Origin: an uncultured Candidatus Saccharibacteria bacterium
GTDB taxonomy: Bacteria > Patescibacteriota > Minisyncoccia > Minisyncoccales > Staskawiczbacteraceae
Direction: 5' to 3'
Length of the DNA: 64,000 bases
Assembly: GCA_964479955.1 (NCBI GenBank)
Contig: CAYZNK010000003.1
Coordinates: 66,329 to 130,328, forward strand
Shown: piece by piece, positions 1,200-18,686 of the stretch
Layout of the letters: the number at the start of each line of letters is the position of its first letter
How positions within the stretch are numbered: the first letter of the stretch is position 1
Notes under the pieces: model-generated
The model's input: the letters and a program-made list of their open reading frames with translations, nothing else
The model's database searches: none
Told to the model about the DNA's origin: nothing
Program-made: the position numbers and the translations under genes

Positions 1200-1751
1200 A
1201 TGCATATTGATAAACCAATTATTATTGTCTTAACAATATTTATCATTTTACTTTTGATTTTCTTTTTAGTTTCCCCGGAGTACAGAAATTTTAAGACTCT
1301 GCAATTGGAATTAGGAGTAAAAAAAGCAGAATACAACGCAGAATACGAATATTATTCCCAAATAACTCAAAATTATTATAATATTCAAAACAATTCAGAA
1401 AAAATTAAAAAAATTGATATTGCTTTGCCATCAGACCCTGTTTTAGGAGACTTGGTTTATTATGTGCAGGATGAAGCTTTAAAAAACGGTCTCATATTAA
1501 AAAGCATATTTTTAACAAAAGTCCCCTCTGCTTCTGATGAAGAAAAGATAAAAGATATAGGGTTTTCTTTAAGTCTACTTGGGAATTATAAAGCATTAGA
1601 AAGTTTCCTGAATTCATTGGAAAAATCATCCCGATTGTTTGAAATAAACGGCATTTCATTTGGCGCTGGAAGTGGTTCAAGCCAGTCAACGCAGTTTCAG
1701 TCTCAGGATGTCTTTCAATTCAGCATGCAAATAACAACACACGCATATTAA
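1200..1751 (+). CDS. PilO-like pilus assembly protein (tentative)
   Basis: The ORF starts 4 nt after the previous stop. It has a single N-terminal TM helix, a coiled-coil segment and a C-terminal alpha/beta region (LGNYKALESFLNSLEKSSRLFEINGISF), which is typical of PilO. It sits in the pilus operon. Confidence 0.45.
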   Translation: MHIDKPIIIVLTIFIILLLIFFLVSPEYRNFKTLQLELGVKKAEYNAEYEYYSQITQNYYNIQNNSEKIKKIDIALPSDPVLGDLVYYVQDEALKNGLILKSIFLTKVPSASDEEKIKDIGFSLSLLGNYKALESFLNSLEKSSRLFEINGISFGAGSGSSQSTQFQSQDVFQFSMQITTHAY

Positions 1752-2241: not shown

Positions 2242-3966
2242 ATGGTTTTACTGCAAGAATTATACGCAAACGGAATACTTTCTGACAGTAGAAAAGAAGA
2301 ACTGGAAAAGGAAATTTTGAGTACCGGAAAAAAAGAAGAAGAGGTTATTTTAGGCCAAAAGATTATATCAGAGGCTGCTTTGTTTGAGCTGAAAAGCAGA
2401 GTTTTAAGGATACCGCTAAAAAAGATCAAGCCAGAAGACATATCTTCTGATGCTTTAGAATTGATTCCCGAAGAAGCATCTGCTAATTACAAAATGATTT
2501 CTTTTTCCAAAGCAGAAAATTTTGTTCAGGTGGCAATGGTTTATCCTGAAGATATATCTGCCCAAAACGCACTTAGGTTTTTGGCAAGTCAGGAAAAATT
2601 TAATTATCAGGTTTACTTGATAACCCCTGAGAATTTTAGTGAATTGCAAAAACAAAGAAAAACAATAGGGAGGGAAGCTCAAAAAGTCTTGGAGGAATTA
2701 AGCAAGGAAAAAGAAGATATTTTGGGAACTTTAAGCCAGAAAATATCTGCAGCGGAGGTTATAACAGACGACGCTCCGATTATAAAAATGGTTTTGGCAA
2801 TAGTAAGGCACGCCATTGAGGGCAAGGCGTCTGACATACATATAGAGCCAGGACGAGAGAAATTAAATGTAAGGTTTAGGATAAACGGAGTTTTAAAATC
2901 AGACCTTTTGCTTCCATTAAAAGTGCATCCCTCCATTGCTGCCAGAATAAAGATTTTATCAGGATTAAAAATAGATGAGAACAGGATTCCGCAAGATGGA
3001 AGATTTTCAGCGAGAATAAATGACAGGGACTTAGATTTTAGGGTTGCGACTTTTCCAACTCTTTATGGAGAAAAAATTGAGCTCAGGGTATTGGATCCGT
3101 CCGCAGGATCAAAAACTTTTGATGATTTAGGTCTAACTGGAAAAAATTTAGAATTGGTAAAAGAAGCAATAAAAAAACCTTATGGATTAATCCTGTTTAC
3201 GGGTCCTACTGGCTCAGGAAAAACAACAACCCAGTATGCAATATTGAGAATTTTAAATCAAGAAGGAGTTAATATAGTGACTGTTGAAGACCCTATTGAA
3301 TATTCCATATCAGGGATAAATCAGTCTCAAATAAGACCGGAAATTGGTTATACATTTGCCAGTGGACTCCGTCAAATTTTAAGGCAAGATCCCAATATAA
3401 TTATGGTTGGAGAAGTTCGAGACGAAGAAACAGCAAGTCTTGTTATGAACGCCGCCTTGACGGGGCACGTTGTCCTTTCTACGTTGCATACTAATTCTTC
3501 TGTCGGGGTTGTTGCTAGATTGATGGATATGGGGGTAAGGTCTTTTTTGATTCCTTCAACATTAAGAATTGTAATTTCTCAAAGGCTTGTAAGGACTTTA
3601 TGCAGTAATTGCAAGATAAAAACAAAACCAAGCCTCAAAGTAAAAGATTTTATTTTAGACAAGATTAAAGACCTTCCAGAGCATGCAAAAGCAAACCTTA
3701 AACTTCCCGACCCTTTGTTTATATACTCGGCAAAAGGTTGCGACCAATGCAAAAATACCGGATATTCGGGCAGAGCAGGCTTGTTTGAAGTTTTTTCCAT
3801 GAATGATCAAATTGCCCAATTGATTCTCAAAGACCCTACGGAACAGTCAATTTTTAGAGAAGCAGTAAAACAGGGGATGGTTACAATGGAGCAGGAGGGA
3901 ATATTAAAAGTTTTATCCGGCCAGACAACTATGGAAGAGATAACCCGTGTTACAACCGAAAGATAG
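2242..3966 (+). CDS. pilB: type IV pilus assembly ATPase PilB (GspE family)
   Basis: The 574-aa ORF has Walker A GPTGSGKTTT, a VGEVRDEETA Asp box, a LSTLHTN His box and a tetracysteine motif (CSNC...CDQC). Confidence 0.9.
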   Translation: MVLLQELYANGILSDSRKEELEKEILSTGKKEEEVILGQKIISEAALFELKSRVLRIPLKKIKPEDISSDALELIPEEASANYKMISFSKAENFVQVAMVYPEDISAQNALRFLASQEKFNYQVYLITPENFSELQKQRKTIGREAQKVLEELSKEKEDILGTLSQKISAAEVITDDAPIIKMVLAIVRHAIEGKASDIHIEPGREKLNVRFRINGVLKSDLLLPLKVHPSIAARIKILSGLKIDENRIPQDGRFSARINDRDLDFRVATFPTLYGEKIELRVLDPSAGSKTFDDLGLTGKNLELVKEAIKKPYGLILFTGPTGSGKTTTQYAILRILNQEGVNIVTVEDPIEYSISGINQSQIRPEIGYTFASGLRQILRQDPNIIMVGEVRDEETASLVMNAALTGHVVLSTLHTNSSVGVVARLMDMGVRSFLIPSTLRIVISQRLVRTLCSNCKIKTKPSLKVKDFILDKIKDLPEHAKANLKLPDPLFIYSAKGCDQCKNTGYSGRAGLFEVFSMNDQIAQLILKDPTEQSIFREAVKQGMVTMEQEGILKVLSGQTTMEEITRVTTER

Positions 3967-4098: not shown

Positions 4099-5163
4099 AT
4101 GGATTATTTATCATATTTTAAAAAGATTTTAGAGATAGCTGTTAAACAAGAAGCTTCTGATATAGATATTTCAGTGAACTATGTTCCGCACATAAGAATT
4201 ACCGGCCAGCTTGTGCCCCTAGGTCAAGAGAAAACAATTTTGCCAAAAGATTCTGAGGGCCTTGCTTTTGCAATAATGTCAGAAGAGCAGAAAAATAAAT
4301 TTTTAAAAGAAAAAGAAATAGATTTTTCTTACGAATTTGAAGACAAAGGCAGATTCAGGGTTAATATTTTTTACCAGCGCGGTAGTATAAGCCTGGCTTT
4401 AAGATTTGTACCCTCTAAAATCAGAACTATTGAAGAATTAAACCTTCCACAGATTTTGCACGAATTCACTTCAAGGCCGCAAGGACTTGTTTTGGTGACA
4501 GGCGCTTCAAGTCAGGGAAAATCAACAACCCTTGCCGCTATTTTGGATGAAATAAACCATACAAGGCCCGTGCATATAATAACAATTGAAGACCCGATAG
4601 AATACACATACCCTGTGAGCAGAGCAATAGTTGACCAAAGGGAAGTCGGAATAGATACACTTTCTTTTCCAAGGGCATTAAGAGAGGTTTTGCGGCAAAA
4701 TCCGGATGTTATAATGGTTGGAGAGATGAGGGACTTGGAAACTATTTCAACTGCAATAACGGCAGCTGAAACCGGGCATTTGGTTTTTGCCACTTTACAT
4801 ACAAACGGAGCGGCTCAGGCAATTCATAGAATGGTTGACGTTTTTTCTGCTGAACAGCAAAACCAGATAAGGCTTCAGTTGGCGTCTTCTTTGCTGGGTA
4901 TAGTTTCGCAAAGGCTTATACCAAGAATCCAGGGAGGGTTTATTCCTGTTTGCGAAGTCATGCTTTGTAATAACGCAATTTCAACCTTGATAAGGGAAAA
5001 CAAAACCCACGAAATTGCAGCTGTTATAGAAACATCTTCAAAAGAAGGAATGATTTCTTTAAGCAGGGCATTGGTTGACTTAGTGAGAAGAAAAGAAATA
5101 TCCCTGAAAAATGCAACAGATTACGCGCTGGACCCTAACGAAGTAAAAAACCTATTACGTTAA
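4099..5163 (+). CDS. pilT: twitching motility/retraction ATPase PilT
   Basis: The 354-aa ORF has Walker A GASSQGKST and the motifs ITIEDPIEY, MVGEMRDLETI and FATLHTN. The size is typical of PilT. Confidence 0.9.
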   Translation: MDYLSYFKKILEIAVKQEASDIDISVNYVPHIRITGQLVPLGQEKTILPKDSEGLAFAIMSEEQKNKFLKEKEIDFSYEFEDKGRFRVNIFYQRGSISLALRFVPSKIRTIEELNLPQILHEFTSRPQGLVLVTGASSQGKSTTLAAILDEINHTRPVHIITIEDPIEYTYPVSRAIVDQREVGIDTLSFPRALREVLRQNPDVIMVGEMRDLETISTAITAAETGHLVFATLHTNGAAQAIHRMVDVFSAEQQNQIRLQLASSLLGIVSQRLIPRIQGGFIPVCEVMLCNNAISTLIRENKTHEIAAVIETSSKEGMISLSRALVDLVRRKEISLKNATDYALDPNEVKNLLR

Positions 5164-5296: not shown

Positions 5297-6505
5297 ATGA
5301 AATATATTTATCAGGCAAGGTCAAAAGAAGGAAAGCTTGAAACTGGAACAGTTGAAGCTTCTACAAAAGAAGCGGCGGCTTTTCTTTTGCAGAAATACAA
5401 CATTTTTGTAACATCAATAAAGGAAGAGAAGATATCTTTTGACAAGCTTAAGAATATGCCCCTTTTCGAAAAGGTTTCAAAAAAGGATTTGGCAATATTT
5501 TCAAGGCAGTTGGCTGTTTTAATGGAGTCTAGGGTACCGGTGACACAAGGATTAAAATCTTTAGCTCTTCAGACAAAAAAACAGGGGTTTAAAGAAAAAA
5601 TAATAAAAATATCCCAATTGGTTGAAGAAGGAAACCCCTTATCCGCTGCATTTGGTGAATATCCGGAAGTTTTTAATATTTTCTTTATAAGCTTGGTGAA
5701 GACAGGGGAAGCGTCGGGTAAAATTTCGGAAACCCTTTATTATATATCAGACCATTTGGAAAGAGAGGCGGACATATCTGCAAAAATAAAAGGGGCCATG
5801 ATATATCCGGCATTCGTCATCGGCGTTTTATTTGTTGTTATTCTGGTGATTATGTTTTTTGTAATGCCGAGAATAACGACTCTCTTAAAAGAAACAACAA
5901 ACGAACCGCCCATGATGACCAAAATAATGATAAGTTTCTATGAATTTTTATTTCATTACGGATGGGTGTTAGTTGTGGCTTTTTTTTCGTTAATTGTTTT
6001 TATAATTTATTATATGACAACCAAAGCAGGGAAAAAAACTTATGATAAAATTTTATTAAAATTGCCGGTTTTAAAAGATTTTTTTAAAAAAATCTTTCTT
6101 ATTAGGTTTGCAGAAAATATTGCAACTTTAATTTCAGCCGGCCTTTCAATAAATAATGCGCTTAAAATAACAAAAGATACTGTGGATAATGTGGTTTACA
6201 AAGAGATTATTTCTGAGATAGAAAAAAAGGTTTCAGAGGGAGAAAAAATGAGTTCGGTTTTGGCAAAGTATCCAGAATATGCCCCGCCTTTTGTGGTGCA
6301 AATGATACAGGTGGGTGAAGACACTGGAAAATTAGATAAAAATTTGAACGAAATAGTTAATTTTTTTCAAAAAGAAGTTGCAAGAACGGTTGAGGTATTC
6401 ACAGCTCTTTTGGAGCCGATTTTAATAATTGTTTTGGGTATTATTGTTGCATTGATGGCAGTTACCATTTTAGAGCCATTATACGGGTCATTAAGCGCGA
6501 TTTAA
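5297..6505 (+). CDS. pilC: type IV pilus platform protein PilC (GspF family)
   Basis: The 402-aa ORF has two T2SF-type repeats with three TM segments. Motifs include FSRQLAVLMESRVPV and FVVQMIQVGEDTGKLD. Confidence 0.9.
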   Translation: MKYIYQARSKEGKLETGTVEASTKEAAAFLLQKYNIFVTSIKEEKISFDKLKNMPLFEKVSKKDLAIFSRQLAVLMESRVPVTQGLKSLALQTKKQGFKEKIIKISQLVEEGNPLSAAFGEYPEVFNIFFISLVKTGEASGKISETLYYISDHLEREADISAKIKGAMIYPAFVIGVLFVVILVIMFFVMPRITTLLKETTNEPPMMTKIMISFYEFLFHYGWVLVVAFFSLIVFIIYYMTTKAGKKTYDKILLKLPVLKDFFKKIFLIRFAENIATLISAGLSINNALKITKDTVDNVVYKEIISEIEKKVSEGEKMSSVLAKYPEYAPPFVVQMIQVGEDTGKLDKNLNEIVNFFQKEVARTVEVFTALLEPILIIVLGIIVALMAVTILEPLYGSLSAI

Positions 6506-7024
6506 ATGTTTTTAAGCAGCAAAAAAATAATTAAACGTTGGCATTACATTGGACTGTTTATTTTATTGTTTGGCTTATTAAGATATTTTTTTGATTATGA
6601 TTTATCTAAAAATAGCAACATGTGGGATTTTTTTTGGGTGTGCCACATAACTTCAGTTTTAGCTGGAATTATTATTTTGTCCCGCGATAAATTTTTAATA
6701 TCAGGAGTTTTAGTGTGGATAATATTGGGTCCATTATTAGCTATTCTTTTTAATATAAATGGAGTTTTGTCTTTAACTGGGTTTCATCATATAACAACTG
6801 CGCTGGCTTTGCCTGTAATATTGTTTTATTATAAAGAAACATGGAGCTCTGAAGGATTTGCATTCGGAGTAATAAGTTTCTATGCCTATATGTCAATAAC
6901 TGCAAACCTAAGCGATGGAGCAATAAATTTATTAAATAATATGCCCTTGTGGGTAGGCTTGTTTTTAGCTATGGTTTCTTTGTTGATGATTTTTCAAAAT
7001 AAGTTCCTTAAATATCAAATATAA
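6506..7024 (+). CDS. polytopic membrane protein of unknown function in the pilus operon
   Basis: The start ATG abuts the pilC stop (TAAATG). The ORF has about 5 hydrophobic segments. I recognise no family. Confidence 0.45.
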   Translation: MFLSSKKIIKRWHYIGLFILLFGLLRYFFDYDLSKNSNMWDFFWVCHITSVLAGIIILSRDKFLISGVLVWIILGPLLAILFNINGVLSLTGFHHITTALALPVILFYYKETWSSEGFAFGVISFYAYMSITANLSDGAINLLNNMPLWVGLFLAMVSLLMIFQNKFLKYQI

Positions 7025-7037: not shown

Positions 7038-7517
7038 ATGAAAAATATCTTAGAAAAATCAAGGATTTATTTATACCAAGCCGGTTTTACGGTTATAGAA
7101 TTGGTTGTAGTTGTTGCAATAATGGCTGTTTTATCCACGATTGTTGCAGCTAATATTATGTCATATTTATCTAAAGGAAAAGATGCGGCCATAAAAGGAA
7201 ATATGCATTCTATTGCCAGTAGCGCCACTGTATTTTTCGATAAAGAAAAAGAATGGAATAATGTTTTTAATCCGGTAAATAACCCTTCCATACTTGTAGT
7301 TATGGATGCCATTAATAAAATAACAGCCCCAAATGCGGTGTGGCGCCGTTTAAGTTCCGATAATTCATCTTGGTGTGTTTGCTCTTTTCTTACGCAGATA
7401 GTTGGTGCTTCGGGGACGTCAAACACATATTGTATTGATAGTTCAGGTTATAGAAAAGAAACCACAAATCATTGTTCTCTTCGTTGTACAAATACCACCG
7501 GGTCTTGTTTAGATTAA
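7038..7517 (+). CDS. type IV pilin (paralog 1)
   Basis: It carries the prepilin leader and class III signal QAG/FTVIELVVVVAIMAVL. It has the C-terminal Cys-containing motif WCVC...TYCIDSSGYRKET shared with the two following pilins. Confidence 0.8.
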   Translation: MKNILEKSRIYLYQAGFTVIELVVVVAIMAVLSTIVAANIMSYLSKGKDAAIKGNMHSIASSATVFFDKEKEWNNVFNPVNNPSILVVMDAINKITAPNAVWRRLSSDNSSWCVCSFLTQIVGASGTSNTYCIDSSGYRKETTNHCSLRCTNTTGSCLD

Positions 7518-7540: not shown

Positions 7541-7987
7541 ATGCAAAACAGGAAAAAAGGTTTTAAAAATACACTTTTGGCAGGTTTTACATTTATTGAA
7601 TTATTGGTAGCAGTTGCGATAATCGCAGTTTTATCGGCTATAATTTTGTTTACAATCATTCAATATATAGATAAGGGAAAAGACGCAAATGTGAAGGGAA
7701 ATTTGGCAGTTTTAATTTCGTCGGGAGAGGTTTATTATAATAGTAATCAAAATATAAACGGGACAGGATATGACGGATATTGCGATTCAAGCGTTGTTGC
7801 AACAGCCCAAAGCGAAATTCCAAAACATGAAGATATTGGGATTTATTGTTCAGATAATAAAAGCGAATGGGCCGCATGCGCCCAGTTGTTTCTGGATGAC
7901 AGATATGCATATTGCGTTGATAGTAGGGGAGTAAAAAAGGAAATTGACAACGATGACTGTGTAGCAGATATGGTGCAATGCCCCTAA
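7541..7987 (+). CDS. type IV pilin (paralog 2)
   Basis: The track ORF is 7472..7987. I prefer the internal ATG at 7541, which gives MQNRKKGFKNTLLAG/FTFIELLVAVAIIAVL. The C-terminal motif is WAACAQL...AYCVDSRG. Confidence 0.8.
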   Translation: MQNRKKGFKNTLLAGFTFIELLVAVAIIAVLSAIILFTIIQYIDKGKDANVKGNLAVLISSGEVYYNSNQNINGTGYDGYCDSSVVATAQSEIPKHEDIGIYCSDNKSEWAACAQLFLDDRYAYCVDSRGVKKEIDNDDCVADMVQCP

Positions 7988-8222
7988 TTGCTTTACCTGT
8001 GGATTTCTTATTTGATATTTTTTCTGGATAATTTATAATAAGATAAGTGCAATATTATTTATATTTTAAAGGTCGGCTCCAAAGAAAGAATAATTCAACA
8101 ATAAAAAAAATTCGTCTCCGCCAGTTGGCGGACGGCGGGAAAAATAATTAATAACGGACAAGTTTTTGCTATTTGCAATTTAAAGAGCAATATAGCTATT
8201 AATTGTTCGTTTAGTTTAAATC

Positions 8223-8660
8223 ATGCAAAGACAAAAAGGTTTTACAATTATTGAATTGATTGTGGTTATAGCAATTATTGCTGTCTTGGCTACAATCGTG
8301 ATGGTAAACGTTGTCCAATACATTGGAAAATCAAAGGACGCTGCAATAAAGGGGAACATGCAAACAATTGCAAGCACTGCGGCTGGAATTTTTGATACAT
8401 ATAAAGCATATAATAACGGAGCAACAACTTCTGCAGTAGGAAATCCGACAGCAGCAAATGCGATAGCCCAGATAAACACCCTGAGCAGTAATGCGACCAA
8501 TACAGCTGCTCATAATAATAGTTCAAACTGGTGTGTTTGCGCTCAGCTTACAGGAAATTCCGCCAATACGTATTGCGTTGACAGCACAGGATACAAGAAT
8601 GAAACAGCAACAGCTTGCGGAACCAGATGCAGCGCCACATCACAAGCCTGTGCAAACTAA
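8223..8660 (+). CDS. type IV pilin (paralog 3, likely major pilin)
   Basis: It has a short leader, MQRQKG/FTIIELIVVIAIIAVL. The C-terminal motif is WCVCAQL...TYCVDSTGYKNET. A strong hairpin terminator follows. Confidence 0.85.
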   Translation: MQRQKGFTIIELIVVIAIIAVLATIVMVNVVQYIGKSKDAAIKGNMQTIASTAAGIFDTYKAYNNGATTSAVGNPTAANAIAQINTLSSNATNTAAHNNSSNWCVCAQLTGNSANTYCVDSTGYKNETATACGTRCSATSQACAN

Positions 8661-8669
8661 AATTTAAGG

Positions 8670-8712
8670 CCAAACAGAAACCCCTCTTTTTATGTGCGGG
8701 GTTTTTGTTTGG
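8670..8712 (+). terminator. intrinsic terminator after pilin 3
   Basis: CCAAACAGAAACCCC (8670-8684) pairs with GGGGTTTTTGTTTGG (8698-8712) as a 15-bp stem with 1 mismatch. The 3' side is T-rich. Confidence 0.7.
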
Positions 8713-8755
8713 CTGGTTTGCATAAAAACGTTTTTGCAGTTATCATAAATTTAAT

Positions 8756-11242
8756 ATGGAAATTAGACTGGATTTGCTTAAAACATTGCTTAAGAGATCT
8801 TGGGTTCCCTTTTGCTTAATTTTAATATTTTTAACGGCGTTTTTTATCCGGGTGTTTTTTTCTTGGGACTCCGTATTTTCAGACCCCATAAAATATTCTG
8901 CTGACGATGGGATATACCATATGCGTCTTGTGGAAAATATGCTTTTGGGAGGGCATTTCCCATTTAGGATTTATTTTGACCCGTTCACCAATTTTCCTTA
9001 TGGAACTTATATCCATTTTACACCATTATATGACTGGCTTCTGGCTTTGATAATTTGGATAATATCTTTTGGAAAACCAACATTGGAAATAATAAACAAA
9101 ATCGCCCCGTTTTATCCTGCCGTAATGGGGGCATTATTAATATTTGTTATTTATTTTATAACCAAAATTCTTTTTAAAAATAGAGGAATTGCTATCTTAG
9201 CTTCGTTTTTATCTGGAATTTCGCCCTCATTCTTATACAGGTCTACATTGGGAAACACCGACCATCATGTTGCAGAAGTTTTGTTTTCAACGCTTTTTAT
9301 AATGTTCTTTATGATGGTTTTGCAAAACAGCAGGAACTCGTTTAGTTCTCTGAAATTTTGGATTTTTGCAGTATTATCCGGTTTTTCTTTGGGGCTTTAT
9401 TTTTTAGCATGGACAGGAGCTATAATGTTTTTGTTTCTAATATTCTGTTTTATTGTGCTGTATTATTTAATAGAATATTTTTTGGGAAATCGGAAAAATT
9501 GGATTTTATATGCGGGAATTATTATTTTTTTGACTTCATTTTTGATGATTTTGCCGTTTTTCGGGCACCCTGACCTTTTTAATACCTATATGTATAATAT
9601 TTTGCACCTGGAATCTTTTTTGCTTGGGATATTGGTTTTTATAATTTTACTTTTATTTGACAGGTTATTTTTAAAAAAGAATATCAGCTCTAAACTAATG
9701 CCGATTTTTTTGGCTTGCACGATTTTTTTGGTATTAAGTTTATTTAAAATATTTTTACCGGATCTGTTTTTTTACTTAATATCCGGAGCAAAAGAAGTTA
9801 ATACTGGAATGGTTGAATATCCCTTGGCCCGCGAATTAGTAGGAGAAATGGCTCCAGTTTCTTTTAACGGGCTTGTTGGAAATTTTTATGCAGTTTTTAT
9901 AGTGTCCTTAATATCACTTGGAATAATTTTTTATAAATTTTTAAAAAATAGAAAACCGGAATATCTTCTGATTATTTTGTGGGCTGTTTTTATGATGTTA
10001 ATGTCTGGCATCATACCGTATTTTGGGCAAGTGAGGTTCTCTTATTATCTATCCCCCATTTTCTCAATTTTGTTTTCGTTTACAGTATTTTCTGCAATAA
10101 TATTTGGATGGGAGGGATTGCAAAAATCAAAAGAATTGGATGAATCAAACACTTTCAAAAAATATATTTTAATCGGTTCAGTTGTCATGATTTTTAATGG
10201 AATTTATTTTTTGTTTTATCCGTTTCCTTTTAACGCCGGAGCTGATTTTCCGAAAAGCTTGCCATACATTATTGGTGATATTTTTTATAACGCAAAAATG
10301 TCTCCAGCAGAAGAGGATAGATACGAAGTTGTAGAATGGCTGAAAAATAATACGCCCGACACAGGAATTGATTATTATGAACTTTATAAAGAGCCTGGGA
10401 TTAATAATGATACTGGAAAAGTTAATGCTTATGCTTATCCGGAATCAGCTTATGGTATTTTGGCGGTTTGGGATTTTGGCCACATGATAACTTATTATGG
10501 CCACAGGATTCCCGTTTCAAACCCTTTTCAACAGGGAATAGGCAGAAAAAACAAAGACGGGTCAATACGCCCCGGATATGCTACATTTTTTCTGGAAAGA
10601 GATGAAAATGCGGCCACAGGTTATCTGGAACAGCTAAAAACAAGATATGTGATTTCAGATAGCGCATCTGTAAATTCTGACGGCGTTTTTCAGCAGATGA
10701 TAAAATGGGCCCAGGATGATTATGACGGATATTTAGAGGAAAATTCAGAAAATTTGGACTTAAATAAATATTACGATTCAATGATCACCAGGCTTCATTT
10801 GTTTGATGGCAGACAAACTGAATTTACCGCAAAAATAAGCGAAGAAGACAGGGATTTTGAAATCAAGCCATTAAGCCGGTTCAGATTGCTTTATGAATCC
10901 GACACAACCGGATTTACTTTGAAAATTGATGCAAAAAATGATGTTAAAAATTTTAAAGTTTTTCAATATGTTAAAGGGGCTGTGATAAAAGGATTTGCGC
11001 CTTTGGGAGCGGAAGTTGAGGTTTCAGTAAAAATAACAACCAATCAGGATAGGGAGTTTACATATAAAAATACCGCTGAGTCAAAAAACGGAAGCTTTAA
11101 AATTACGGTTCCTTATTCAACTGGGTTTCAAAAGAACTCTGAAACAAAAGCTGAAAAATATATGATTAAAATTGGAAACTATACAAAAGAGGTAGAGGTT
11201 TCCGAGCAAGATATTTTAAACGGAAAAATAATAAACATATGA
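8756..11242 (+). CDS. STT3/AglB/PglB-family oligosaccharyltransferase
   Basis: The 828-aa ORF has a ~480-aa polytopic N-terminus and a soluble C-terminal domain. It carries a WDFGH motif (VWDFGHMITYYG) at the position of the catalytic WWDYG motif. The first loop has ADDGIYHMR and YFDPFTNFPYG, resembling the DxD...YH.R and FDP.FN. loop motifs of AglB/STT3. Confidence 0.7.
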   Translation: MEIRLDLLKTLLKRSWVPFCLILIFLTAFFIRVFFSWDSVFSDPIKYSADDGIYHMRLVENMLLGGHFPFRIYFDPFTNFPYGTYIHFTPLYDWLLALIIWIISFGKPTLEIINKIAPFYPAVMGALLIFVIYFITKILFKNRGIAILASFLSGISPSFLYRSTLGNTDHHVAEVLFSTLFIMFFMMVLQNSRNSFSSLKFWIFAVLSGFSLGLYFLAWTGAIMFLFLIFCFIVLYYLIEYFLGNRKNWILYAGIIIFLTSFLMILPFFGHPDLFNTYMYNILHLESFLLGILVFIILLLFDRLFLKKNISSKLMPIFLACTIFLVLSLFKIFLPDLFFYLISGAKEVNTGMVEYPLARELVGEMAPVSFNGLVGNFYAVFIVSLISLGIIFYKFLKNRKPEYLLIILWAVFMMLMSGIIPYFGQVRFSYYLSPIFSILFSFTVFSAIIFGWEGLQKSKELDESNTFKKYILIGSVVMIFNGIYFLFYPFPFNAGADFPKSLPYIIGDIFYNAKMSPAEEDRYEVVEWLKNNTPDTGIDYYELYKEPGINNDTGKVNAYAYPESAYGILAVWDFGHMITYYGHRIPVSNPFQQGIGRKNKDGSIRPGYATFFLERDENAATGYLEQLKTRYVISDSASVNSDGVFQQMIKWAQDDYDGYLEENSENLDLNKYYDSMITRLHLFDGRQTEFTAKISEEDRDFEIKPLSRFRLLYESDTTGFTLKIDAKNDVKNFKVFQYVKGAVIKGFAPLGAEVEVSVKITTNQDREFTYKNTAESKNGSFKITVPYSTGFQKNSETKAEKYMIKIGNYTKEVEVSEQDILNGKIINI

Positions 11243-11922
11243 AGCTTTCTATAATAGTTCCTGCCTATAATGAAGAAAGAACAATCTCTGAAATTTTAAA
11301 AAAAGTTGATGCTGTTTTATTGCCCGGATTTGAAAAAGAAATAATCATTATTGATGATAAATCTTCGGACGGAACATTGGGGGTTTTGGAAAAAATAAAG
11401 AGTATGCATGATTTTATTTTATTGAATCATCCGCGGAACATGGGGAAGGGAGCTGCAATCAGGACAGGAATAAAAAAAGCAACGGGGGATTTTGTTATTA
11501 TTCAAGACGCTGACTTGGAATATGATCCTAATGATTATAAAAAACTTTTAGTTCCGTTTTTGGAACAAGGGGCTGAAGTTGTTTATGGGTCTCGCATTTT
11601 AGGTTCAAAAAAGCGAGGAAAATTAAGTTTTTATTTGGGAGGCAGGTTTATGACTATTGCTACAAATTTAATACATGGAATAAATATTACAGACGAGCCG
11701 ACTTGTTATAAGGTTTTTAAAAGGGATTTGATAAATTCTTTGGATTTGAAAAGCAACGGTTTTGAATTTTGTCCCGAAGTTACAGCAAAAATAGCCAGGC
11801 GAGGAATAAAAATATACGAAGTGCCGATATCTTATTTTCCAAGGGGTAAATCAGAGGGGAAAAAGATAAAATGGAGAGACGGAGTTATAGCCCTGTGGAC
11901 TTTGCTTAAATATAGGTTTTAA
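11239..11922 (+). CDS. GT2 glycosyltransferase, polyprenol-phosphate sugar synthase-like (DPM1/dolichyl-P-glucose synthase type)
   Basis: Motifs are IIVPAYNEE, IIIIDDKSSDGT, RNMGKGAAIRTG and IIQDADLEYDP (DxD). Its start overlaps the OST stop (ATGA), implying translational coupling. Confidence 0.8.
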   Translation: MKLSIIVPAYNEERTISEILKKVDAVLLPGFEKEIIIIDDKSSDGTLGVLEKIKSMHDFILLNHPRNMGKGAAIRTGIKKATGDFVIIQDADLEYDPNDYKKLLVPFLEQGAEVVYGSRILGSKKRGKLSFYLGGRFMTIATNLIHGINITDEPTCYKVFKRDLINSLDLKSNGFEFCPEVTAKIARRGIKIYEVPISYFPRGKSEGKKIKWRDGVIALWTLLKYRF

Positions 11923-11930
11923 AATTATTT

Positions 11931-12713
11931 ATGGACTTTATTTTACTTTTATTGTATTTGTTCATCTCTGTTTTTGGCCTTTGTATCGGGAGTTTTTTAA
12001 ATTGCGTGATTTATAGGCTGGAAACGGAAAGAAGCCTAAAAGGAAGATCTTTTTGCCCTAAATGCAAAAACCAACTGAAATGGATAGACCTTGTCCCTGT
12101 TTTTAGTTTTTTGTTTTTAAAAGGCAGGTGCCGCTATTGTAAAAAAGGTATATCTTGGCAATACCCTGCGATAGAAATATTAACAGGATTGATATTCTTA
12201 CTAATTTTCCTTGCTTGCCGGCAGGCAGGAATTTTAAATTTACTGTTTTGGTTTTACATCTCGTCTGCGGTGATAGTCATTTTTGTTTATGACCTAAAAC
12301 ATTATGAAATTCCAGACAAAATTTTGATGCCGGCAATCTTAATTACCTTAATATACGATATTTTTATTTTGTGCCAGCCGTTTTCTCTGATATGTTCAAT
12401 AAATTATATTTTTGCCGCATTGATTGGTTCTGGTTTTTTTCTTTCCATATTTTTAATTTCAAAAGGATTATGGATGGGGTTTGGGGATGTAAAGTTTGCA
12501 GTTTTAATGGGTTTACTACTGGGATTTCCCAATATCCTGTTGGCTTTGTTTTTATCGTTCTTTTTTGGTGCTATAATAGGAATAATATTAATGGTTTTTA
12601 AAAAGAAAGGAATTAAAAGCGAGATCCCTTTTGCCCCGTTTTTAATAGTGGGAACATTTTTAACCGTTTTTTGGGGGGAGCAAATAATAAGTTGGTATTT
12701 ATCTTTAATTTGA
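11931..12713 (+). CDS. pilD: prepilin peptidase PilD (A24 family)
   Basis: It has an N-terminal zinc motif (CPKCKN...CRYCKK), the catalytic Asp motif GFGDVKFAVLMG and a polytopic membrane profile. Confidence 0.9.
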   Translation: MDFILLLLYLFISVFGLCIGSFLNCVIYRLETERSLKGRSFCPKCKNQLKWIDLVPVFSFLFLKGRCRYCKKGISWQYPAIEILTGLIFLLIFLACRQAGILNLLFWFYISSAVIVIFVYDLKHYEIPDKILMPAILITLIYDIFILCQPFSLICSINYIFAALIGSGFFLSIFLISKGLWMGFGDVKFAVLMGLLLGFPNILLALFLSFFFGAIIGIILMVFKKKGIKSEIPFAPFLIVGTFLTVFWGEQIISWYLSLI

Positions 12714-12720: not shown

Positions 12721-13338
12721 TTGTTCAAAGATTTTAGATTTAAAATTTTAAATAAAAAACAAGGGATAACACTTGTTGAGATTGCAGTCTCTGTTTTTAT
12801 CATTGCCATATTTTCCCTTATGGTTATTAGCAATTTTCCAAGAATACAAAGACAGTTTGCTCTTTCTCAAGCGACACATAAAATAGCTCAGGATATAAGA
12901 AAAGCGGAAGATTTGGGATTTTCGGGTGCCCAAGTTTCAGAAGATTTTGATGCAAAAGGATATGGTGTCTTTATTACTTTTACAGAAGTGGGTGGTATTT
13001 ATCCTACACATTGGTATATATATGCTGATACTAACGAACCAGCCGATAAGAAATATACTTCGGAAGATTATATTATTGAGAATGTCAGTATTCTTGATTC
13101 TGGAGTCTTTATTAAAAAAGCTTATGATATTGATAACCCCAGTATTAACGTTAGTCATTTGAGCATAAACTTTAATCCTCCTAATCCCGATGTGACAATA
13201 ATGGCCAACTATGAACCTAGCCTAGAAAATTTTATAGTTATTGAGAAGGGTGTAAGAATTGTGATGAGTTTGATACAGGATCCGTCAATGGAAAAAACTG
13301 TTTTTATAAATTCATCCGGCTTAATAGAGGTTGAGTAA
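12721..13338 (+). CDS. minor pilin / pseudopilin
   Basis: It carries the class III signal KKQG/ITLVEIAVSVFIIAIFSL. The start appears to be TTG, with no in-frame ATG before the signal. Confidence 0.6.
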   Translation: MFKDFRFKILNKKQGITLVEIAVSVFIIAIFSLMVISNFPRIQRQFALSQATHKIAQDIRKAEDLGFSGAQVSEDFDAKGYGVFITFTEVGGIYPTHWYIYADTNEPADKKYTSEDYIIENVSILDSGVFIKKAYDIDNPSINVSHLSINFNPPNPDVTIMANYEPSLENFIVIEKGVRIVMSLIQDPSMEKTVFINSSGLIEVE

Positions 13339-13345
13339 AATTTCA

Positions 13346-13924
13346 ATGAAAAATTTATTGTTTTTTAAAAAAAATAAAGGGTTTACAATAATAGAGCTGT
13401 CTGTTGCTATTTTTATTTTATCAATTGCCATAATTGGGGCATATAATGCTTTTACAACAATGGATAAATTAACTTCTAATTCTTCAGACCGGTTTGTAGC
13501 CGCATATTTAGCTCAAGAAGGATTGGAGATAATAAGAAATATAAGAGACAGCAACTGGTTAAGAATGGATACTGATCCTTCAATAACTTGGGTATCAGGG
13601 ATTTCAGACCAAGATACTGATTGCACTATAGGTTGTGAAGTTGATTATAAAACATTAGGTACTGCTGACTCACCGTTATATCCATGGACAGGAAGATATT
13701 TTTATATCAATGAAGAGGGATTTTATACATATAACCAGGAATCTGCAACAAAAACAAAATTCAAGAGAAAAATAACAATCACCCCCTTGGAAACAGCAGA
13801 AGGCGTTTATGATGTAATAAAGATTACAGTTCAAGTTTTTTGGGATGAAAAATCAAATATTTTGCACAATGAAGAAACAGAGGATTATATTACAGCAGAA
13901 GAGTATCTTTATAATTGGTACTAA
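13346..13924 (+). CDS. minor pilin (PilV-like)
   Basis: The signal is KKNKG/FTIIELSVAIFILSIAIIG. I chose the ATG at 13346 within track ORF 13331..13924. Confidence 0.65.
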   Translation: MKNLLFFKKNKGFTIIELSVAIFILSIAIIGAYNAFTTMDKLTSNSSDRFVAAYLAQEGLEIIRNIRDSNWLRMDTDPSITWVSGISDQDTDCTIGCEVDYKTLGTADSPLYPWTGRYFYINEEGFYTYNQESATKTKFKRKITITPLETAEGVYDVIKITVQVFWDEKSNILHNEETEDYITAEEYLYNWY

Positions 13925-14020
13925 GTTAATTTTAAAAATTTTGAGTGTTAAGAAAATATTTTAATAAATTTTTAATTTTCAACCATGGCACACACTGGGG
14001 TTTCAAATTCAGTCCGTCGA

Positions 14021-14681
14021 ATGGCGGAAAAAATTCAAAATTCTAACAGAGGTCTTACAATGGTTGAGCTTATTGTTGTTATAGCTGTTTTTATGTTGGT
14101 TGTTAGTGTGGCTATAGTTATTTTTGTATCCATTATTGATAGCCAGAGAATAATTTTGTCTCGCGAGCGGTTATTGAGCCAAGTTAGCTACGCTACAGAA
14201 TATATGTCAAAAGCCTTAAGAATGGCCTCAAAAGACATAGGCGGAGATTGTCTTGTATATACAGATGTTAATTATAATATTACAGATACGTTTCCGGGAT
14301 ATATCTATTTATATACAAGGCCGAATAGTTGGTATGAGGGGATAAAGTTTATAAATGAATCTAACAATGAAGCATGTCAAGAATTTTATTTAGCCGAAGC
14401 AGGAGGAAACGTACTAAAAGAAAAAAGAATAAATTTCCCGTATGACCAAGTTACTGATGAAAATTCAGTATCCTTAATTTCTGATAAGTTTAGTATCAAT
14501 TATTTAAGGTTTAGCATAAATGGAACAAGCGGATTGGAGGCTGATTTAATATATGGAGCATCAGAGGATGATGACCCTCCGCAGCAGCCAAGAGTTACTA
14601 TTATTATGGGAGTTCAGTCTCCGGAAGACCCATTGCAATCTGAAATAAAAATACAAACCACGATTTCTCAAAGAAATTTAA

Positions 14682-14692
<11 letters not shown>
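14021..14692 (+). CDS. minor pilin (PilW-like)
   Basis: The signal is NSNRG/LTMVELIVVIAVFMLVV. I prefer the ATG at 14021, which gives an 11-aa leader. The alternative start is 13985. Confidence 0.6.

Positions 14693-18686
<3,994 letters not shown>

What the first reader, a model, noticed from the sequence alone, without database searches (positions are those of the whole stretch)
8756..11922. Archaeal/eukaryotic-type oligosaccharyltransferase (STT3/AglB-like) plus a polyprenol-phosphate GT2 embedded in a bacterial type IV pilus operon
The operon order is three pilins, then OST (828 aa), GT2 (227 aa), pilD and the minor pilins. The OST has a polytopic N-terminus and a soluble C-terminal domain with WDFGH at the place of the catalytic WWDYG motif. 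Its first-loop motifs (ADDGIYHMR; YFDPFTNFPYG) look like those of AglB/STT3. The GT2 start overlaps the OST stop (ATGA). The GT2 looks like the DPM1-type enzymes that charge polyprenol phosphate with a sugar. In archaea, AglB N-glycosylates archaellins and type IV pilins. Bacterial type IV pilins are classically O-glycosylated by PglL/PilO-type enzymes instead. All three pilins carry N-x-S/T sequons: pilin 3 has NAT, NNS, NSS and NET; pilin 1 has NSS and NTT; pilin 2 has NGT and NKS. The placement suggests a dedicated N-glycosylation module for pili in this bacterium.
Basis: partly seen in the sequence, partly recalled or inferred. Interest (0 to 1): 0.7.

Follow-up and report, generated by a model that had tools for sequence, protein, structure and literature searches.

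The report
Archaeal-type N-glycosylation cassette in pilus operon
A tiny uncultured (CPR/Patescibacteria) bacterium carries, inside its type IV pilus operon, an archaeal-type enzyme pair that most likely attaches sugars to asparagines of its pilins, a modification not described for bacterial pili.

Summary
ORF 8756-11242 is a full-length AglB-L-type oligosaccharyltransferase: TIGR04154 at 560 bits (cutoff 450), A. fulgidus AglB at E 2e-74, and model TM 0.81 to 7E9S against 0.46 for PglB and less for ArnT/PMT. The metal and catalytic residues are conserved (D51, D169, H171, E364, R427).

ORF 11239-11922 overlaps its stop codon (ATGA). It is a short GT2 whose best solved relatives are Dol-P-Man synthase, ArnC and GtrB.

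The pair sits between three prepilins and pilD. This slot is conserved in at least 12 further CPR assemblies (OST 44-87% identical) and is empty in many related pilus operons, so the pair behaves as a two-gene cassette.

- **Monophyly:** the CPR enzymes form one clade; the nearest relatives are Methanoperedens/Methanosarcinales AglB at about 30% identity.
- **Motif change:** the whole clade has lost the first Trp and the Tyr of WWDYG (A-x-W-D-x-G-H) and the DK lysine.
- **Sequon counts:** total sequons in the pilins are not enriched over their Asn-rich composition.
- **Sequon position:** one N-x-S/T just before a conserved W-x-x-C occurs in 14/23 pilins of OST-containing operons (3 expected) against 2/14 where the OST is absent.

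N-glycosylation of pilins is the best reading, but it is inferred, not shown. No publication on this was found.

The parts
135..1196 (+). DUF5018-domain protein at the head of the pilus gene cluster
   Evidence: Pfam DUF5018. Syntenic in L001, L003, L008, L013, L059 and L060.
1200..1751 (+). PilO-like pilus assembly protein
   Evidence: Pfam PilO, E 1.4e-6.
2242..3966 (+). PilB-type assembly ATPase
   Evidence: Pfam T2SSE E 1e-127, plus MshEN.
4099..5163 (+). PilT-type retraction ATPase
   Evidence: Pfam T2SSE E 4e-47.
5297..6505 (+). PilC platform protein
   Evidence: Pfam T2SSF, two repeats.
6506..7024 (+). 172-aa polytopic membrane protein of unknown family, directly after pilC
   Evidence: No Pfam or NCBIfam hit. 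Found only in the closest relatives L001, L002 and L096. Its role, a flippase included, is untested.
7038..7517 (+). Prepilin 1; hot-spot sequon DNSSWCVC at nt 7359-7382
   Evidence: N_methyl motif. Sequons NSS and NTT. Hot-spot position.
7541..7987 (+). Prepilin 2; hot-spot sequon DNKSEWAAC at nt 7853-7879
   Evidence: N_methyl motif. Sequons NGT and NKS. Hot-spot position.
8012..8039 (+). Promoter-like site upstream of pilin 3 (TTGATA-16-TATAAT)
   Evidence: 11 of 12 consensus matches, the best in the scanned region. A consensus match only.
8223..8660 (+). Prepilin 3, the probable major pilin; hot-spot sequon HNNSSNWCVC at nt 8511-8540
   Evidence: N_methyl E 5e-9. It has its own promoter-like site and terminator hairpin. 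Sequons NAT, NNS, NSS and NET. In the AF2 model (pLDDT 68) the hot spot lies in the turn between strands 95-98 and 103-108.
8668..8714 (+). Strong hairpin after pilin 3, terminator-like
   Evidence: MFE -28.5 kcal/mol, z -7.0 against shuffles.
8756..11242 (+). AglB-L-type oligosaccharyltransferase (GT-C/STT3 family), divergent CPR subclade with VWDFGH
   Evidence: TIGR04154 560 bits against cutoff 450. Pfam STT3 + AglB_core-like + AglB_L1. 3WAJ E 2e-74. AF2 pLDDT 86.8 and TM 0.81 to 7E9S. D51, D169, H171 and E364 are invariant and R427 nearly invariant.
11239..11922 (+). Short GT2 of the polyprenyl-phosphate glycosyltransferase class, translationally coupled to the OST (ATGA)
   Evidence: PF00535 E 2e-33. 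Best NCBIfam hits AglJ, PpgS and ArnC, all below equivalog cutoffs. Best PDB hits 5MLZ Dol-P-Man synthase E 3e-22, then ArnC and GtrB. DAD motif at residues 90-92. ATGA overlap.
11931..12713 (+). PilD prepilin peptidase / N-methyltransferase
   Evidence: Pfam A24_N_bact E 9e-33 and Peptidase_A24 E 5e-15.
12721..15599 (+). Four minor-pilin-like genes (12721-13338, 13331-13924, 13985-14692, 14682-15599)
   Evidence: N_methyl motifs in the first three. Syntenic in relatives.

Best explanation
The two genes form a compact, archaeal-derived N-glycosylation cassette inserted into the type IV pilus operon of a CPR/Patescibacteria bacterium.

**Proposed mechanism**
1. On the cytoplasmic face, the 227-aa GT2 charges a polyprenyl monophosphate with a sugar from a nucleotide sugar. 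In a bacterium the carrier is presumably undecaprenyl phosphate.
2. The lipid-linked sugar is flipped by an unidentified flippase, possibly after extension by enzymes encoded elsewhere.
3. The AglB-type OST has its catalytic site on the outer face. It transfers the glycan to Asn side chains of membrane-anchored prepilins or pilins, chiefly at an N-x-S/T in the hairpin turn just before the conserved W-x-x-C strand.
4. The modified pilins are processed by PilD and polymerised by PilB/PilC.

**Shown**
- The identity, fold and catalytic residues of the OST.
- The class of the GT2.
- The conserved cassette and its fixed slot in the pilus operon.
- The positional sequon hot spot.

**Inferred**
- Enzymatic activity, the lipid carrier, the size and type of the glycan, the flippase, and that pilins are the substrates.

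**Sub-confidences**
- The OST is a genuine AglB homologue: about 0.97.
- The GT2 makes a polyprenyl-P-sugar: about 0.8.
- Pilins are N-glycosylated by it: about 0.55.
- The donor is a monophosphate-linked mono- or short saccharide: about 0.35.
For: **OST identity**
- TIGR04154 matches end to end at 560 bits.
- Pfam finds STT3, AglB_core-like and AglB_L1.
- AfAglB-L matches at E 2e-74.
- The predicted structure (pLDDT 86.8) matches 7E9S/3WAK at TM 0.8, STT3 at about 0.6, PglB at 0.46 and ArnT/PMT far lower.

**Catalytic residues**
- The residues equivalent to AfAglB D47, D161, H163, E360 and R426 (roles from PMC8342417) are D51, D169, H171, E364 and R427. The first four are invariant and R427 nearly invariant across 28 sequences.

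**GT2 class**
- The best solved relatives are all polyprenyl-phosphate glycosyltransferases, and the DAD motif is kept.
- Euryarchaeal AglBs use monophosphate-linked donors (PMC8342417). That is the kind of product this class of GT2 makes.

**Cassette behaviour**
- OST and GT2 are adjacent in 15 of 16 assessable CPR loci.
- Their identities to the window co-vary: 87/86, 74/77, 60/72, 49/60, 47/51 %.
- The start/stop overlap recurs in relatives.

**Link to pili**
- The pair lies between pilins and pilD in the window, L001, L003, L004, L006-L009, L013, L059, L060, L062 and L117, and next to pilD in L014.
- A PilC-seeded sample of pilus operons includes about 25 in which pilins abut pilD directly. 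Some of these are close relatives (L064, L068, L069).

**Sequon hot spot**
- An N-x-S/T lies within 8 residues before the conserved aromatic-x-x-C in 14/23 pilins of OST+ operons. Shuffling predicts 3.0 (binomial 1e-7, uncorrected for shared ancestry).
- The figure is 2/14 in close OST- operons (Fisher p = 0.006).
- The x residue and the S/T vary (NSS, NKS, NNS, NGS, NAS, NGT, NTT, NDS, NAT) while the flanks diverge.

**Precedent**
- Archaeal AglB glycosylates archaellins and pilins (PMC5131992, abstract).
Against: - There is no direct evidence of glycosylation.
- Total sequon counts in the pilins are no higher than shuffles of the same composition predict (ratio 1.16 in OST+ operons, 1.18 in OST- operons).
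- At the operon level the hot-spot association is weak (8/10 against 2/6, p = 0.09). Pilins within and between operons are related, so the pilin-level p-values are inflated.
- OST- operons may have an OST elsewhere in the genome.
- The Ser/Thr-binding pocket is not canonical. The first Trp and the Tyr of WWDYG are replaced throughout the clade. Single sequences also lose the second Trp (L003, RCDVGH) or the Asp (P0022, P0067, P0017). The DK lysine is replaced too.
- In the sister subclade the OST is not in a pilus operon.
- No flippase or further glycosyltransferases are identified in the window.
- The GT2 is below every equivalog cutoff, so its sugar is unknown.
Confidence: 0.58

Rival explanations
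1. The cassette is a general cell-surface N-glycosylation system of these bacteria. On this view pilins are only one substrate among many, or not a substrate at all, and the position in the pilus operon reflects co-expression with envelope genes or a convenient insertion site rather than dedication to pili.
For: - In the sister CPR subclade the OST lies next to other genes. One context is a radical-SAM / split-transketolase / GT2 / heptose-type sugar cluster followed by signal peptidase I (L005, L010, L040, L139). Another is a spermine-synthase-like membrane protein with three paralogous secreted proteins (L011, L140). A third is a >2300-aa Kelch-repeat surface protein (L141).
- Archaeal AglBs are broad-spectrum enzymes (established knowledge; PMC5131992 abstract).
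- Total pilin sequons are not enriched.
Against: - The slot between the major pilins and pilD is conserved over OST divergence down to about 44% identity.
- The positionally conserved sequon is largely confined to OST+ operons.
- Even in L005 the OST is followed by prepilin-like genes.
- This rival does not exclude the main explanation. It differs only in breadth.
Confidence: 0.25
2. The CPR enzyme is an active GT-C transferase with changed acceptor specificity. With the WWD/DK Ser/Thr pocket remodelled, it may read a non-canonical site with no +2 Ser/Thr requirement, or a different residue. It may even act on a non-protein acceptor such as a cell-wall polymer, with the GT2 supplying the lipid-linked sugar as in GtrB/GtrC-type or ArnC/ArnT-type three-component systems.
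For: - The first Trp and the Tyr of WWDYG are lost across the clade, the positions that replace them vary, and the DK lysine is lost.
- WWDYG plus DK/MI form the Ser/Thr pocket (PMC8342417).
- A polyprenyl-P GT2 next to a GT-C enzyme is the layout of the Gtr and Arn systems (established knowledge; structural relatives).
- Nine of 23 pilins in OST+ operons lack the hot-spot sequon.
Against: - The second Trp, the Asp, the Gly and the following His are kept in nearly all members.
- The TIXE Glu, which pairs with the sequon backbone, is invariant.
- The fold is far closer to AglB/STT3 than to ArnT or PMT.
- The hot spot is specifically N-x-S/T, with x and S/T interchanging. This is what +2 hydroxyl recognition would predict.
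Confidence: 0.14
3. The association is an artefact: an archaeal gene wrongly joined to, or binned with, bacterial DNA.
For: Some archaeal-type homologues in public MAGs carry implausible bacterial labels. For example, L019 ('Tenericutes') gives the same match as the Methanoperedenaceae contig L021 from the same study.
Against: - In the window the OST lies on one contiguous stretch between bacterial pilins and pilD, and its stop overlaps the next gene.
- GC content is uniform across the cassette.
- The same arrangement recurs in more than 12 independent assemblies, including contigs of 234 kb and 694 kb.
- The CPR sequences form their own clade, about 30% identical to any archaeal sequence.
Confidence: 0.01

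Closest known systems
Archaeoglobus fulgidus AglB-L (PDB 3WAJ/3WAK/5GMY/7E9S) and the TIGR04154 'archaeosortase A-associated' AglB subfamily of Euryarchaeota
   Same: - Same three-part architecture: a 13-TM STT3 domain, the AglB core domain and the AglB_L1 peripheral domain.
- About 25% identity, E 2e-74, TM 0.81.
- Conserved first DXD Asp, D-H-H, TIXE Glu, phosphate-site Arg and the NPFQ stretch.
- Scores above the NCBIfam trusted cutoff.
   Different: - The host is a bacterium.
- The motif is A-x-W-D-x-G-H instead of S-W-W-D-Y-G-H, and the DK lysine is replaced.
- TIXE reads L/V-x-G/S-E-M.
- The gene sits in a bacterial type IV pilus operon rather than with archaeal agl genes or an archaeosortase.
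- The lipid carrier cannot be dolichol unless the host makes it.
Archaeal N-glycosylation of archaellins and type IV pilins by AglB (Methanococcus, Haloferax, Sulfolobus), with AglJ-type Dol-P hexosyltransferase
   Same: - An AglB-type OST acts on type IV pilin-like proteins that carry class III signal peptides.
- A GT2 of the AglJ/DPM1 class loads the first sugar on a monophosphate carrier. The best NCBIfam hit of the window GT2 is AglJ.
   Different: - The pilus machinery here is the bacterial PilB/PilT/PilC/PilD type with bacterial-type pilins.
- The GT2 scores 108 bits against the AglJ cutoff of 325, so it is not an AglJ orthologue.
- No further agl glycosyltransferases or flippase lie nearby.
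Bacterial N-OST PglB (Campylobacter lari 3RCE/6GXC; Desulfovibrio and deep-sea vent homologues)
   Same: It is a single-subunit STT3-family OST in a bacterium. By published phylogeny it too was acquired from Euryarchaeota (PMC4973528).
   Different: - Only about 13% identity and TM 0.46.
- PglB has WWDYG plus an MI motif, uses Und-PP-linked glycans built by a pgl cluster, and needs D/E-x-N-x-S/T.
- None of these features is seen here. The CPR clade is a separate acquisition.
Bacterial pilin O-oligosaccharyltransferases (PilO/TfpO, PglL, TfpW, PglS, TfpM)
   Same: The gene is placed next to the major pilin gene, and the presumed role is decoration of type IV pili with lipid-linked glycans (PMC9829042 and PMC1976384, abstracts).
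   Different: Those enzymes belong to the Wzy_C/O-antigen-ligase or other GT-C families and modify Ser/Thr. The enzyme here is an STT3/AglB homologue, predicted to modify Asn.
Three-component polyprenyl-P-sugar systems (GtrA/GtrB/GtrC; ArnC/ArnT; DPM1 with PMT/ALG enzymes)
   Same: A GT2 makes a polyprenyl-P-monosaccharide that a GT-C enzyme uses on the outer face. GtrB and ArnC are among the GT2's closest solved relatives.
   Different: - The GT-C partner is an N-OST rather than a GtrC, ArnT or PMT.
- No GtrA-like flippase is recognisable.
- The GT2 lacks the C-terminal transmembrane helices of GtrB and P. furiosus DPMS (227 aa against 341-374 aa).

Membership tests
STT3/AglB/PglB oligosaccharyltransferases (GT-C, CAZy GT66) | Multi-span N-terminal domain plus C-terminal globular domain with the OST fold | tested here: met
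   AF2 model pLDDT 86.8, pTM 0.85. Foldseek TM 0.81 to AfAglB 7E9S, about 0.6 to STT3, 0.46 to PglB, at most 0.34 to ArnT/PMT.
STT3/AglB/PglB oligosaccharyltransferases (GT-C, CAZy GT66) | First DXD acidic residue and second DXD (D-x-H/D) metal ligands in the TM domain | tested here: met
   D50-D51 aligns with N46-D47, and D169-H170-H171 with D161-H162-H163. D51, D169 and H171 are invariant in 28 sequences.
STT3/AglB/PglB oligosaccharyltransferases (GT-C, CAZy GT66) | TIXE/SVSE motif Glu in external loop 5, and the phosphate-site Arg | tested here: met
   E364 is invariant (the motif reads LVGE here), and R427 is nearly invariant (GQVRF against GQNRF).
STT3/AglB/PglB oligosaccharyltransferases (GT-C, CAZy GT66) | Canonical WWDYG motif (Ser/Thr pocket) | tested here: not met
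   The window has V571-W-D-F-G575. All CPR-clade members read A-x-W-D-x-G-H. L003 has RCDVGH, P0022 EWGVGH and P0017 NWEIGH. All archaeal relatives keep SWWDYGH. The W-D-G core is retained, so I file the protein as a divergent homologue, not as a canonical OST.
STT3/AglB/PglB oligosaccharyltransferases (GT-C, CAZy GT66) | DK (D-x-x-K-x-x-x-M/I) or MI (M-x-x-I) motif completing the Ser/Thr pocket | tested here: not met
   The aligned segment is D-G-V-F-Q-Q-M. The Lys position holds V/I/G/S/A/E across the clade, and only the trailing M/hydrophobic residue and Trp are kept.
STT3/AglB/PglB oligosaccharyltransferases (GT-C, CAZy GT66) | Transfer of a lipid-linked glycan to Asn of N-x-S/T | not testable with these tools
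   The only evidence is indirect: the sequon hot spot in adjacent pilins.
NCBIfam TIGR04154 (AglB, archaeosortase A system-associated subfamily) | Full-length HMM score above the curated cutoff | tested here: met
   560.2 bits against cutoff 450, residues 20-823 on model positions 3-831/831. The association with an archaeosortase was not tested, and none is expected in a bacterium.
Polyprenyl-phosphate glycosyltransferases of GT2 (DPM1/DPMS, AglJ, GtrB, ArnC, PpgS) | GT-A catalytic domain with a DxD motif, and closest similarity to enzymes acting on polyprenyl phosphate | tested here: met
   PF00535 E 2e-33. DAD at residues 90-92 aligns with the DAD of P. furiosus DPMS. The top PDB hits are DPMS, ArnC and GtrB.
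Polyprenyl-phosphate glycosyltransferases of GT2 (DPM1/DPMS, AglJ, GtrB, ArnC, PpgS) | Orthology to a characterised enzyme, which would fix the sugar specificity | tested here: not met
   All equivalog models are far below cutoff: AglJ 108/325, PpgS 66/370, ArnC 64/529, haloarchaeal Dol-P-hexose transferase 53/375.
Polyprenyl-phosphate glycosyltransferases of GT2 (DPM1/DPMS, AglJ, GtrB, ArnC, PpgS) | Membrane anchoring by interface and transmembrane helices | tested here: inconclusive
   The protein ends at residue 227 with an amphipathic-looking segment (WRDGVIALWTLLKYRF) that is conserved in orthologues. It has no C-terminal TM helices, and no structure was predicted for it.
Bacterial type IV pilus gene cluster | PilB, PilT, PilC, PilD, an alignment protein and prepilins with the G|F-T-x-x-E motif | tested here: met
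   Pfam and NCBIfam hits. A PilM-like gene lies upstream in L001.
Pilin O-oligosaccharyltransferases (PilO/PglL, Wzy_C family) | Wzy_C / O-antigen ligase domain | tested here: not met
   No such Pfam hit on any gene of the operon.

The most novel reading that the evidence does not exclude
A large clade of CPR/Patescibacteria acquired a euryarchaeal AglB once. Its Ser/Thr pocket was then remodelled (x-W-D-x-G, no DK lysine). The enzyme is now used with a single polyprenyl-P glycosyltransferase as a minimal two-gene system that N-glycosylates bacterial type IV pilins at a conserved hairpin sequon. This would be the first N-glycosylated bacterial type IV pili and the first functional AglB-type OST in Bacteria. 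The modification could tune pilus-mediated attachment of these episymbionts to their hosts, some of which are methanogenic archaea. It would also offer a naturally minimal single-subunit OST with unusual acceptor recognition for glycoengineering.
Probability: 0.4. Interest if true: 0.85.

Novelty: new variant of a known kind. Interest (0 to 1): 0.7.

Why it matters
Bacterial type IV pili are known to be O-glycosylated. Bacterial N-linked glycosylation through an STT3-family enzyme is known essentially only for PglB of Campylobacterota and a few Desulfobacterota.

An AglB-type enzyme that is monophyletic, widespread in CPR bacteria and wired into the pilus operon would have three consequences:
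- It would add a third, independent archaea-to-bacteria transfer of the OST.
- It would extend N-glycosylation to bacterial pilins.
- It would bear on how these ultrasmall episymbionts recognise and attach to hosts, since type IV pili are their main attachment organelle (PMC13293708).

The clade-wide change of the WWDYG and DK motifs makes a structural question directly testable: how much of the Ser/Thr pocket does sequon reading need?

The OST + GT2 pair is also small enough to be moved into E. coli as a candidate minimal N-glycosylation module.

Tried and rejected
- **Global sequon enrichment.** I counted N-x-S/T in the globular part of 105 pilins against 500 shuffles each. There was no enrichment beyond composition in OST+ operons (57 observed, 49 expected) or OST- operons (79 observed, 67 expected). 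OST+ pilins are simply richer in Asn (10.4% against 6.4%). Global enrichment is therefore dropped as evidence.
- **Regex anchoring of the hot spot.** A regex-anchored version of the test mis-anchored four pilins. I replaced it with an alignment-column definition.
- **Non-OST GT-C enzyme (ArnT/PMT-like).** Rejected on HMM, sequence and fold evidence.
- **PglB-type system.** Rejected: 13% identity, TM 0.46, and no acidic residue at -2 of the hot-spot sequons.
- **Assembly or binning artefact.** Rejected.
- **Literature.** Eight full-text searches combined CPR/Patescibacteria/Parcubacteria/Nealsonbacteria terms with oligosaccharyltransferase/AglB/STT3/N-glycosylation/pilin. I also read five candidate papers for glyco-terms. 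None describes this system. A 2026 preprint on a CPR pilus does not mention glycosylation. The library holds open-access papers only, so absence is not proof.
- **The 172-aa membrane protein after pilC.** I considered it as a flippase candidate. It has no family hit and occurs only in the closest relatives, so no claim is made.
- **Not done.** I did not run a broad representative-library search or a wider AglB phylogeny with named archaeal references. The tree is a neighbour-joining tree with midpoint rooting on 49 sequences, and it is indicative only.

Full report
**1. What is in the sequence**

The window is a low-GC (about 35%) bacterial genome segment. It carries NAD-dependent DNA ligase, FtsW/RodA, RpoB, RecA, UvrA/C and GroEL.

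From 135 to 15599 it encodes a complete type IV pilus cluster on the + strand:
- a DUF5018 protein, a PilO-like protein, PilB, PilT and PilC;
- a 172-aa membrane protein of no known family;
- three prepilins;
- the 828-aa ORF 8756-11242 and the 227-aa ORF 11239-11922;
- PilD and four minor-pilin-like genes.

The stop codon of the 828-aa ORF overlaps the start of the next gene as ATGA.

**2. The 828-aa protein is a genuine AglB-type oligosaccharyltransferase**

- It matches NCBIfam TIGR04154 end to end at 560 bits, above the 450 cutoff.
- It has the three Pfam domains of the long archaeal enzyme: STT3, AglB_core-like and AglB_L1.
- It matches A. fulgidus AglB-L at E 2e-74.
- An AlphaFold2 model built from 28 homologues (pLDDT 86.8, pTM 0.85) superposes on AfAglB (7E9S, 3WAK) with TM 0.8.
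- The model matches eukaryotic STT3 at about 0.6 and PglB at 0.46, and ArnT, PMT and other GT-C enzymes only weakly.

Taguchi et al. 2021 (PMC8342417) define the functional residues of AfAglB. They map as follows:

| AfAglB residue | Window OST | Conservation in 28 sequences |
|---|---|---|
| D47 | D51 | invariant |
| D161 / H163 | D169 / H171 | invariant |
| E360 (TIXE) | E364 | invariant |
| R426 | R427 | nearly invariant |

The catalytic machinery is intact.

**3. The acceptor-recognition motifs are not canonical, and this is a clade property**

WWDYG is VWDFG in the window. In every CPR homologue examined the motif is A-x-W-D-x-G-H, with variable residues where the first Trp and the Tyr should be.

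Single members go further:
- L003 has RCDVGH and lacks the second Trp.
- P0022, P0067 and P0017 replace the Asp with G, S and E respectively.

All archaeal relatives keep SWWDYGH. The lysine of the DK motif is replaced by small or hydrophobic residues, and no MI motif is present.

WWDYG and DK/MI together form the pocket for the +2 Ser/Thr (PMC8342417). Sequon reading by these enzymes therefore cannot be taken for granted.

**4. The 227-aa protein is a polyprenyl-phosphate glycosyltransferase-type GT2**

- It hits Pfam PF00535 at E 2e-33.
- Its best NCBIfam models are AglJ, PpgS, ArnC and the haloarchaeal Dol-P-hexose transferase. All score far below the equivalog cutoffs.
- Its best solved relatives are P. 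furiosus Dol-P-Man synthase (E 3e-22), ArnC and GtrB, and the DAD motif is conserved.
- It lacks the C-terminal transmembrane helices of those enzymes. It ends in a conserved segment that looks amphipathic.
- The sugar it transfers cannot be inferred.

**5. Distribution and origin**

The large protein database holds about 100 clusters at 38-98% identity. Every named one is from Patescibacteria: Nealsonbacteria, Paceibacterota, Minisyncoccia or 'Patescibacteria group'. Identity then drops to about 30-35% for archaeal proteins.

A scan of one genome per species gave 13 CPR loci at 43-60% identity. About 40 further loci at about 30% identity are almost all Methanoperedens or Methanosarcinales.

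A neighbour-joining tree puts all CPR sequences in one clade, separate from all WWDYG-bearing sequences. This points to a single old acquisition from a euryarchaeon. The uniform GC of the cassette agrees with an old transfer.

Archaea-to-bacteria transfer of this gene is accepted for PglB (PMC4973528). The CPR clade is a separate event. Some Paceibacteria are episymbionts of methanogens (titles and abstracts), which makes a host-to-symbiont transfer plausible. I did not test that.

**6. A two-gene cassette in a fixed slot**

With OST-seeded loci, the order pilins - OST - GT2 - pilD - minor pilins - ligA - ftsW is kept in L001, L003, L004, L006, L007, L008, L009 and L013. In L014 the OST lies next to pilD in divergent orientation. 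OST identity across these loci runs from 87% down to 44%.

A methyltransferase is sometimes inserted between OST and GT2 (L006, L007). A metallophosphoesterase is sometimes inserted between GT2 and pilD (L003, L008).

I also took an independent sample of pilus operons seeded on PilC, 80 metagenome loci:
- **Cassette present:** it occupies the same slot in L059, L060, L062 and L117.
- **Cassette absent:** in about 25 operons, including close relatives with 68-70% identical PilC (L064, L068, L069), the pilins abut pilD directly.
- **One exception:** L063 has the GT2 but no OST before the contig ends.

OST and GT2 identities to the window co-vary across loci, and the start/stop overlap recurs. 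The pair therefore behaves as one mobile or deletable unit.

**7. Not only in pilus operons**

The tree has two CPR subclades.

Subclade B contains the window and holds the pilus-embedded copies.

In subclade A the OST sits in three other contexts:
- behind a conserved radical-SAM / split-transketolase / radical-SAM / GT2 / radical-SAM block. In L139 this follows heptose-type sugar-nucleotide genes and precedes signal peptidase I and a PilM-like gene. In L005 it precedes prepilin-like genes;
- next to a spermine-synthase-like membrane protein and three paralogous secreted proteins (L011, L140);
- with the GT2, upstream of a >2300-aa Kelch-repeat protein (L141).

A GT2 of the same class accompanies the OST in 15 of 16 assessable loci. 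The conserved core is therefore OST + polyprenyl-P GT2. The pilus association is a subclade feature.

**8. Are the pilins substrates?**

The global count says nothing. Sequons in the globular parts are 1.16 times the shuffle expectation in OST+ operons and 1.18 times in OST- operons. OST+ pilins are richer in Asn (10.4% against 6.4%).

The position does carry a signal. In an alignment of the related pilins, an N-x-S/T lies within eight residues before the conserved aromatic-x-x-Cys. In the window these are DNSSWCVC, DNKSEWAAC and HNNSSNWCVC.

| Group | Pilins with hot-spot sequon | Expected from shuffles |
|---|---|---|
| 10 OST+ operons (near-identical L001/L002 left out) | 14 of 23 | 3.0 |
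| 6 close OST- operons | 2 of 14 | 1.2 |

At the pilin level Fisher p = 0.006. At the operon level the figures are 8/10 against 2/6, p = 0.09.

The triplet varies (NSS, NKS, NNS, NGS, NAS, NGT, NTT, NDS, NAT) while the flanks diverge. This is the pattern expected if the sequon itself is under selection.

Three caveats apply:
- The pilins are paralogues and orthologues, so the tests overstate independence.
- OST- operons may have an OST elsewhere in the genome.
- Nine pilins in OST+ operons lack the hot-spot sequon.

A modest AF2 model of pilin 3 (pLDDT 68) places the hot spot in the turn between the first two beta-strands.

Pilin 3 has the best promoter-like site of the region (11/12) and a strong downstream hairpin (-28.5 kcal/mol, z -7). 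It is probably the major pilin.

**9. Most likely mechanism**

1. The GT2 loads a sugar on undecaprenyl phosphate at the inner face. Euryarchaeal AglBs use monophosphate-linked donors.
2. An unknown flippase moves the lipid-linked sugar across the membrane.
3. The AglB-type OST transfers the sugar to Asn of membrane-anchored pilins at the hot-spot sequon, and possibly at others.
4. PilD and the PilB/PilC machinery then process and assemble the glycosylated subunits.

Identity, architecture, catalytic residues, cassette behaviour and the hot spot are shown. Activity, carrier, glycan, flippase and substrate are inferred.

The rivals are a general surface-glycosylation system (0.25), a transferase with altered acceptor specificity (0.14) and an artefact (0.01).

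**10. Comparison with what is known, and novelty**

By homology the enzyme belongs to the AglB-L/TIGR04154 lineage. It fails two motif tests (canonical WWDYG, and DK/MI), so I file it as a divergent subclade and not as a canonical OST.

It is not a PglB and not a PilO/PglL-type O-oligosaccharyltransferase.

Automated annotation already names such proteins 'oligosaccharyl transferase, archaeosortase A system-associated' in Patescibacteria MAGs, so the gene's existence is not new.

I found no paper that discusses an AglB-type OST in CPR bacteria, its link to type IV pili or the motif change. The library searched holds open-access papers only.

I rate it a new variant of a known kind, with interest 0.7.

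Noticed in passing
window 48744-53053: A complete diversity-generating retroelement. The 795-aa target protein (48744-51131) has a C-terminal Lcl_C / C-type-lectin-like domain, and its last about 130 nt (50994-51125) form the variable repeat. The template repeat lies at 51353-51484 (88% identical). A small ORF at 51531-51893 and a reverse transcriptase at 51890-53053 follow. Every mismatch between the repeats falls on an adenine of the template copy, the DGR signature.
   Followed up: yes
window 6506-7024: A 172-aa polytopic membrane protein lies immediately after pilC and before pilin 1. It has no Pfam or NCBIfam family and occurs only in the closest relatives (L001, L002, L096). Its function is unknown. 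It could be looked at as a candidate flippase or pilus accessory protein.
   Followed up: partly
window 38247-38831 (-) and 33765-35120 (+): A cupin-type glucose-6-phosphate isomerase (PF06560, the type known mainly from archaea) and a phosphoglucomutase/phosphomannomutase. Together they are a possible supply route for the hexose phosphates needed for nucleotide sugars.
   Followed up: no
L005 4617-12499, L010, L040, L139 3712-10508: In a sister CPR subclade the OST follows a conserved block: radical SAM/SPASM, split transketolase (N and C halves), radical SAM, GT2, radical SAM. In L139 this block is preceded by HldE-, GmhA- and GmhB-like heptose genes and followed by signal peptidase I. It looks like a pathway for an unusual modified sugar feeding the same OST.
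   Followed up: partly
L011 4039-8448 and L140 10752-15808: Here the OST is followed by a 689-aa membrane protein with a spermine/spermidine-synthase domain. Three paralogous secreted proteins of about 240 aa, with no known family, come next. They share a DPGH-x-W-x-(D/E)-IG motif and are possible alternative substrates.
   Followed up: no
L019 versus L021; also L028, L042, L043, L014: Several public MAG contigs that carry archaeal-type or CPR-type OSTs have implausible taxon labels. Examples are a 'Tenericutes' contig giving the same match as a Methanoperedenaceae contig from the same study, 'Ratteibacteria', 'Pedobacter' and 'Dehalococcoidia' contigs with WWDYGH enzymes, and a 'Gammaproteobacteria' contig with a CPR-type OST next to pilD. 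These are probably binning errors.
   Followed up: no
window 53711-57094: A 1127-aa protein in a GC-rich stretch (0.43 at 54-56 kb against about 0.35 elsewhere). It contains internal 276-nt tandem-like repeats (55148-55674) and is probably a repetitive surface protein.
   Followed up: no
L003, L008, L013 and related pilins (mature positions about 23 and 35-39): Many paralogous pilins in related operons carry further recurrent sequons in the C-terminal half of the N-terminal helix: V-N-V-T-Q-Y at about position 23, and G-N-L/M-S/T or S-N-I-S at about positions 35-39. These occur in both OST+ and OST- operons, and the window pilins lack them.
   Followed up: no
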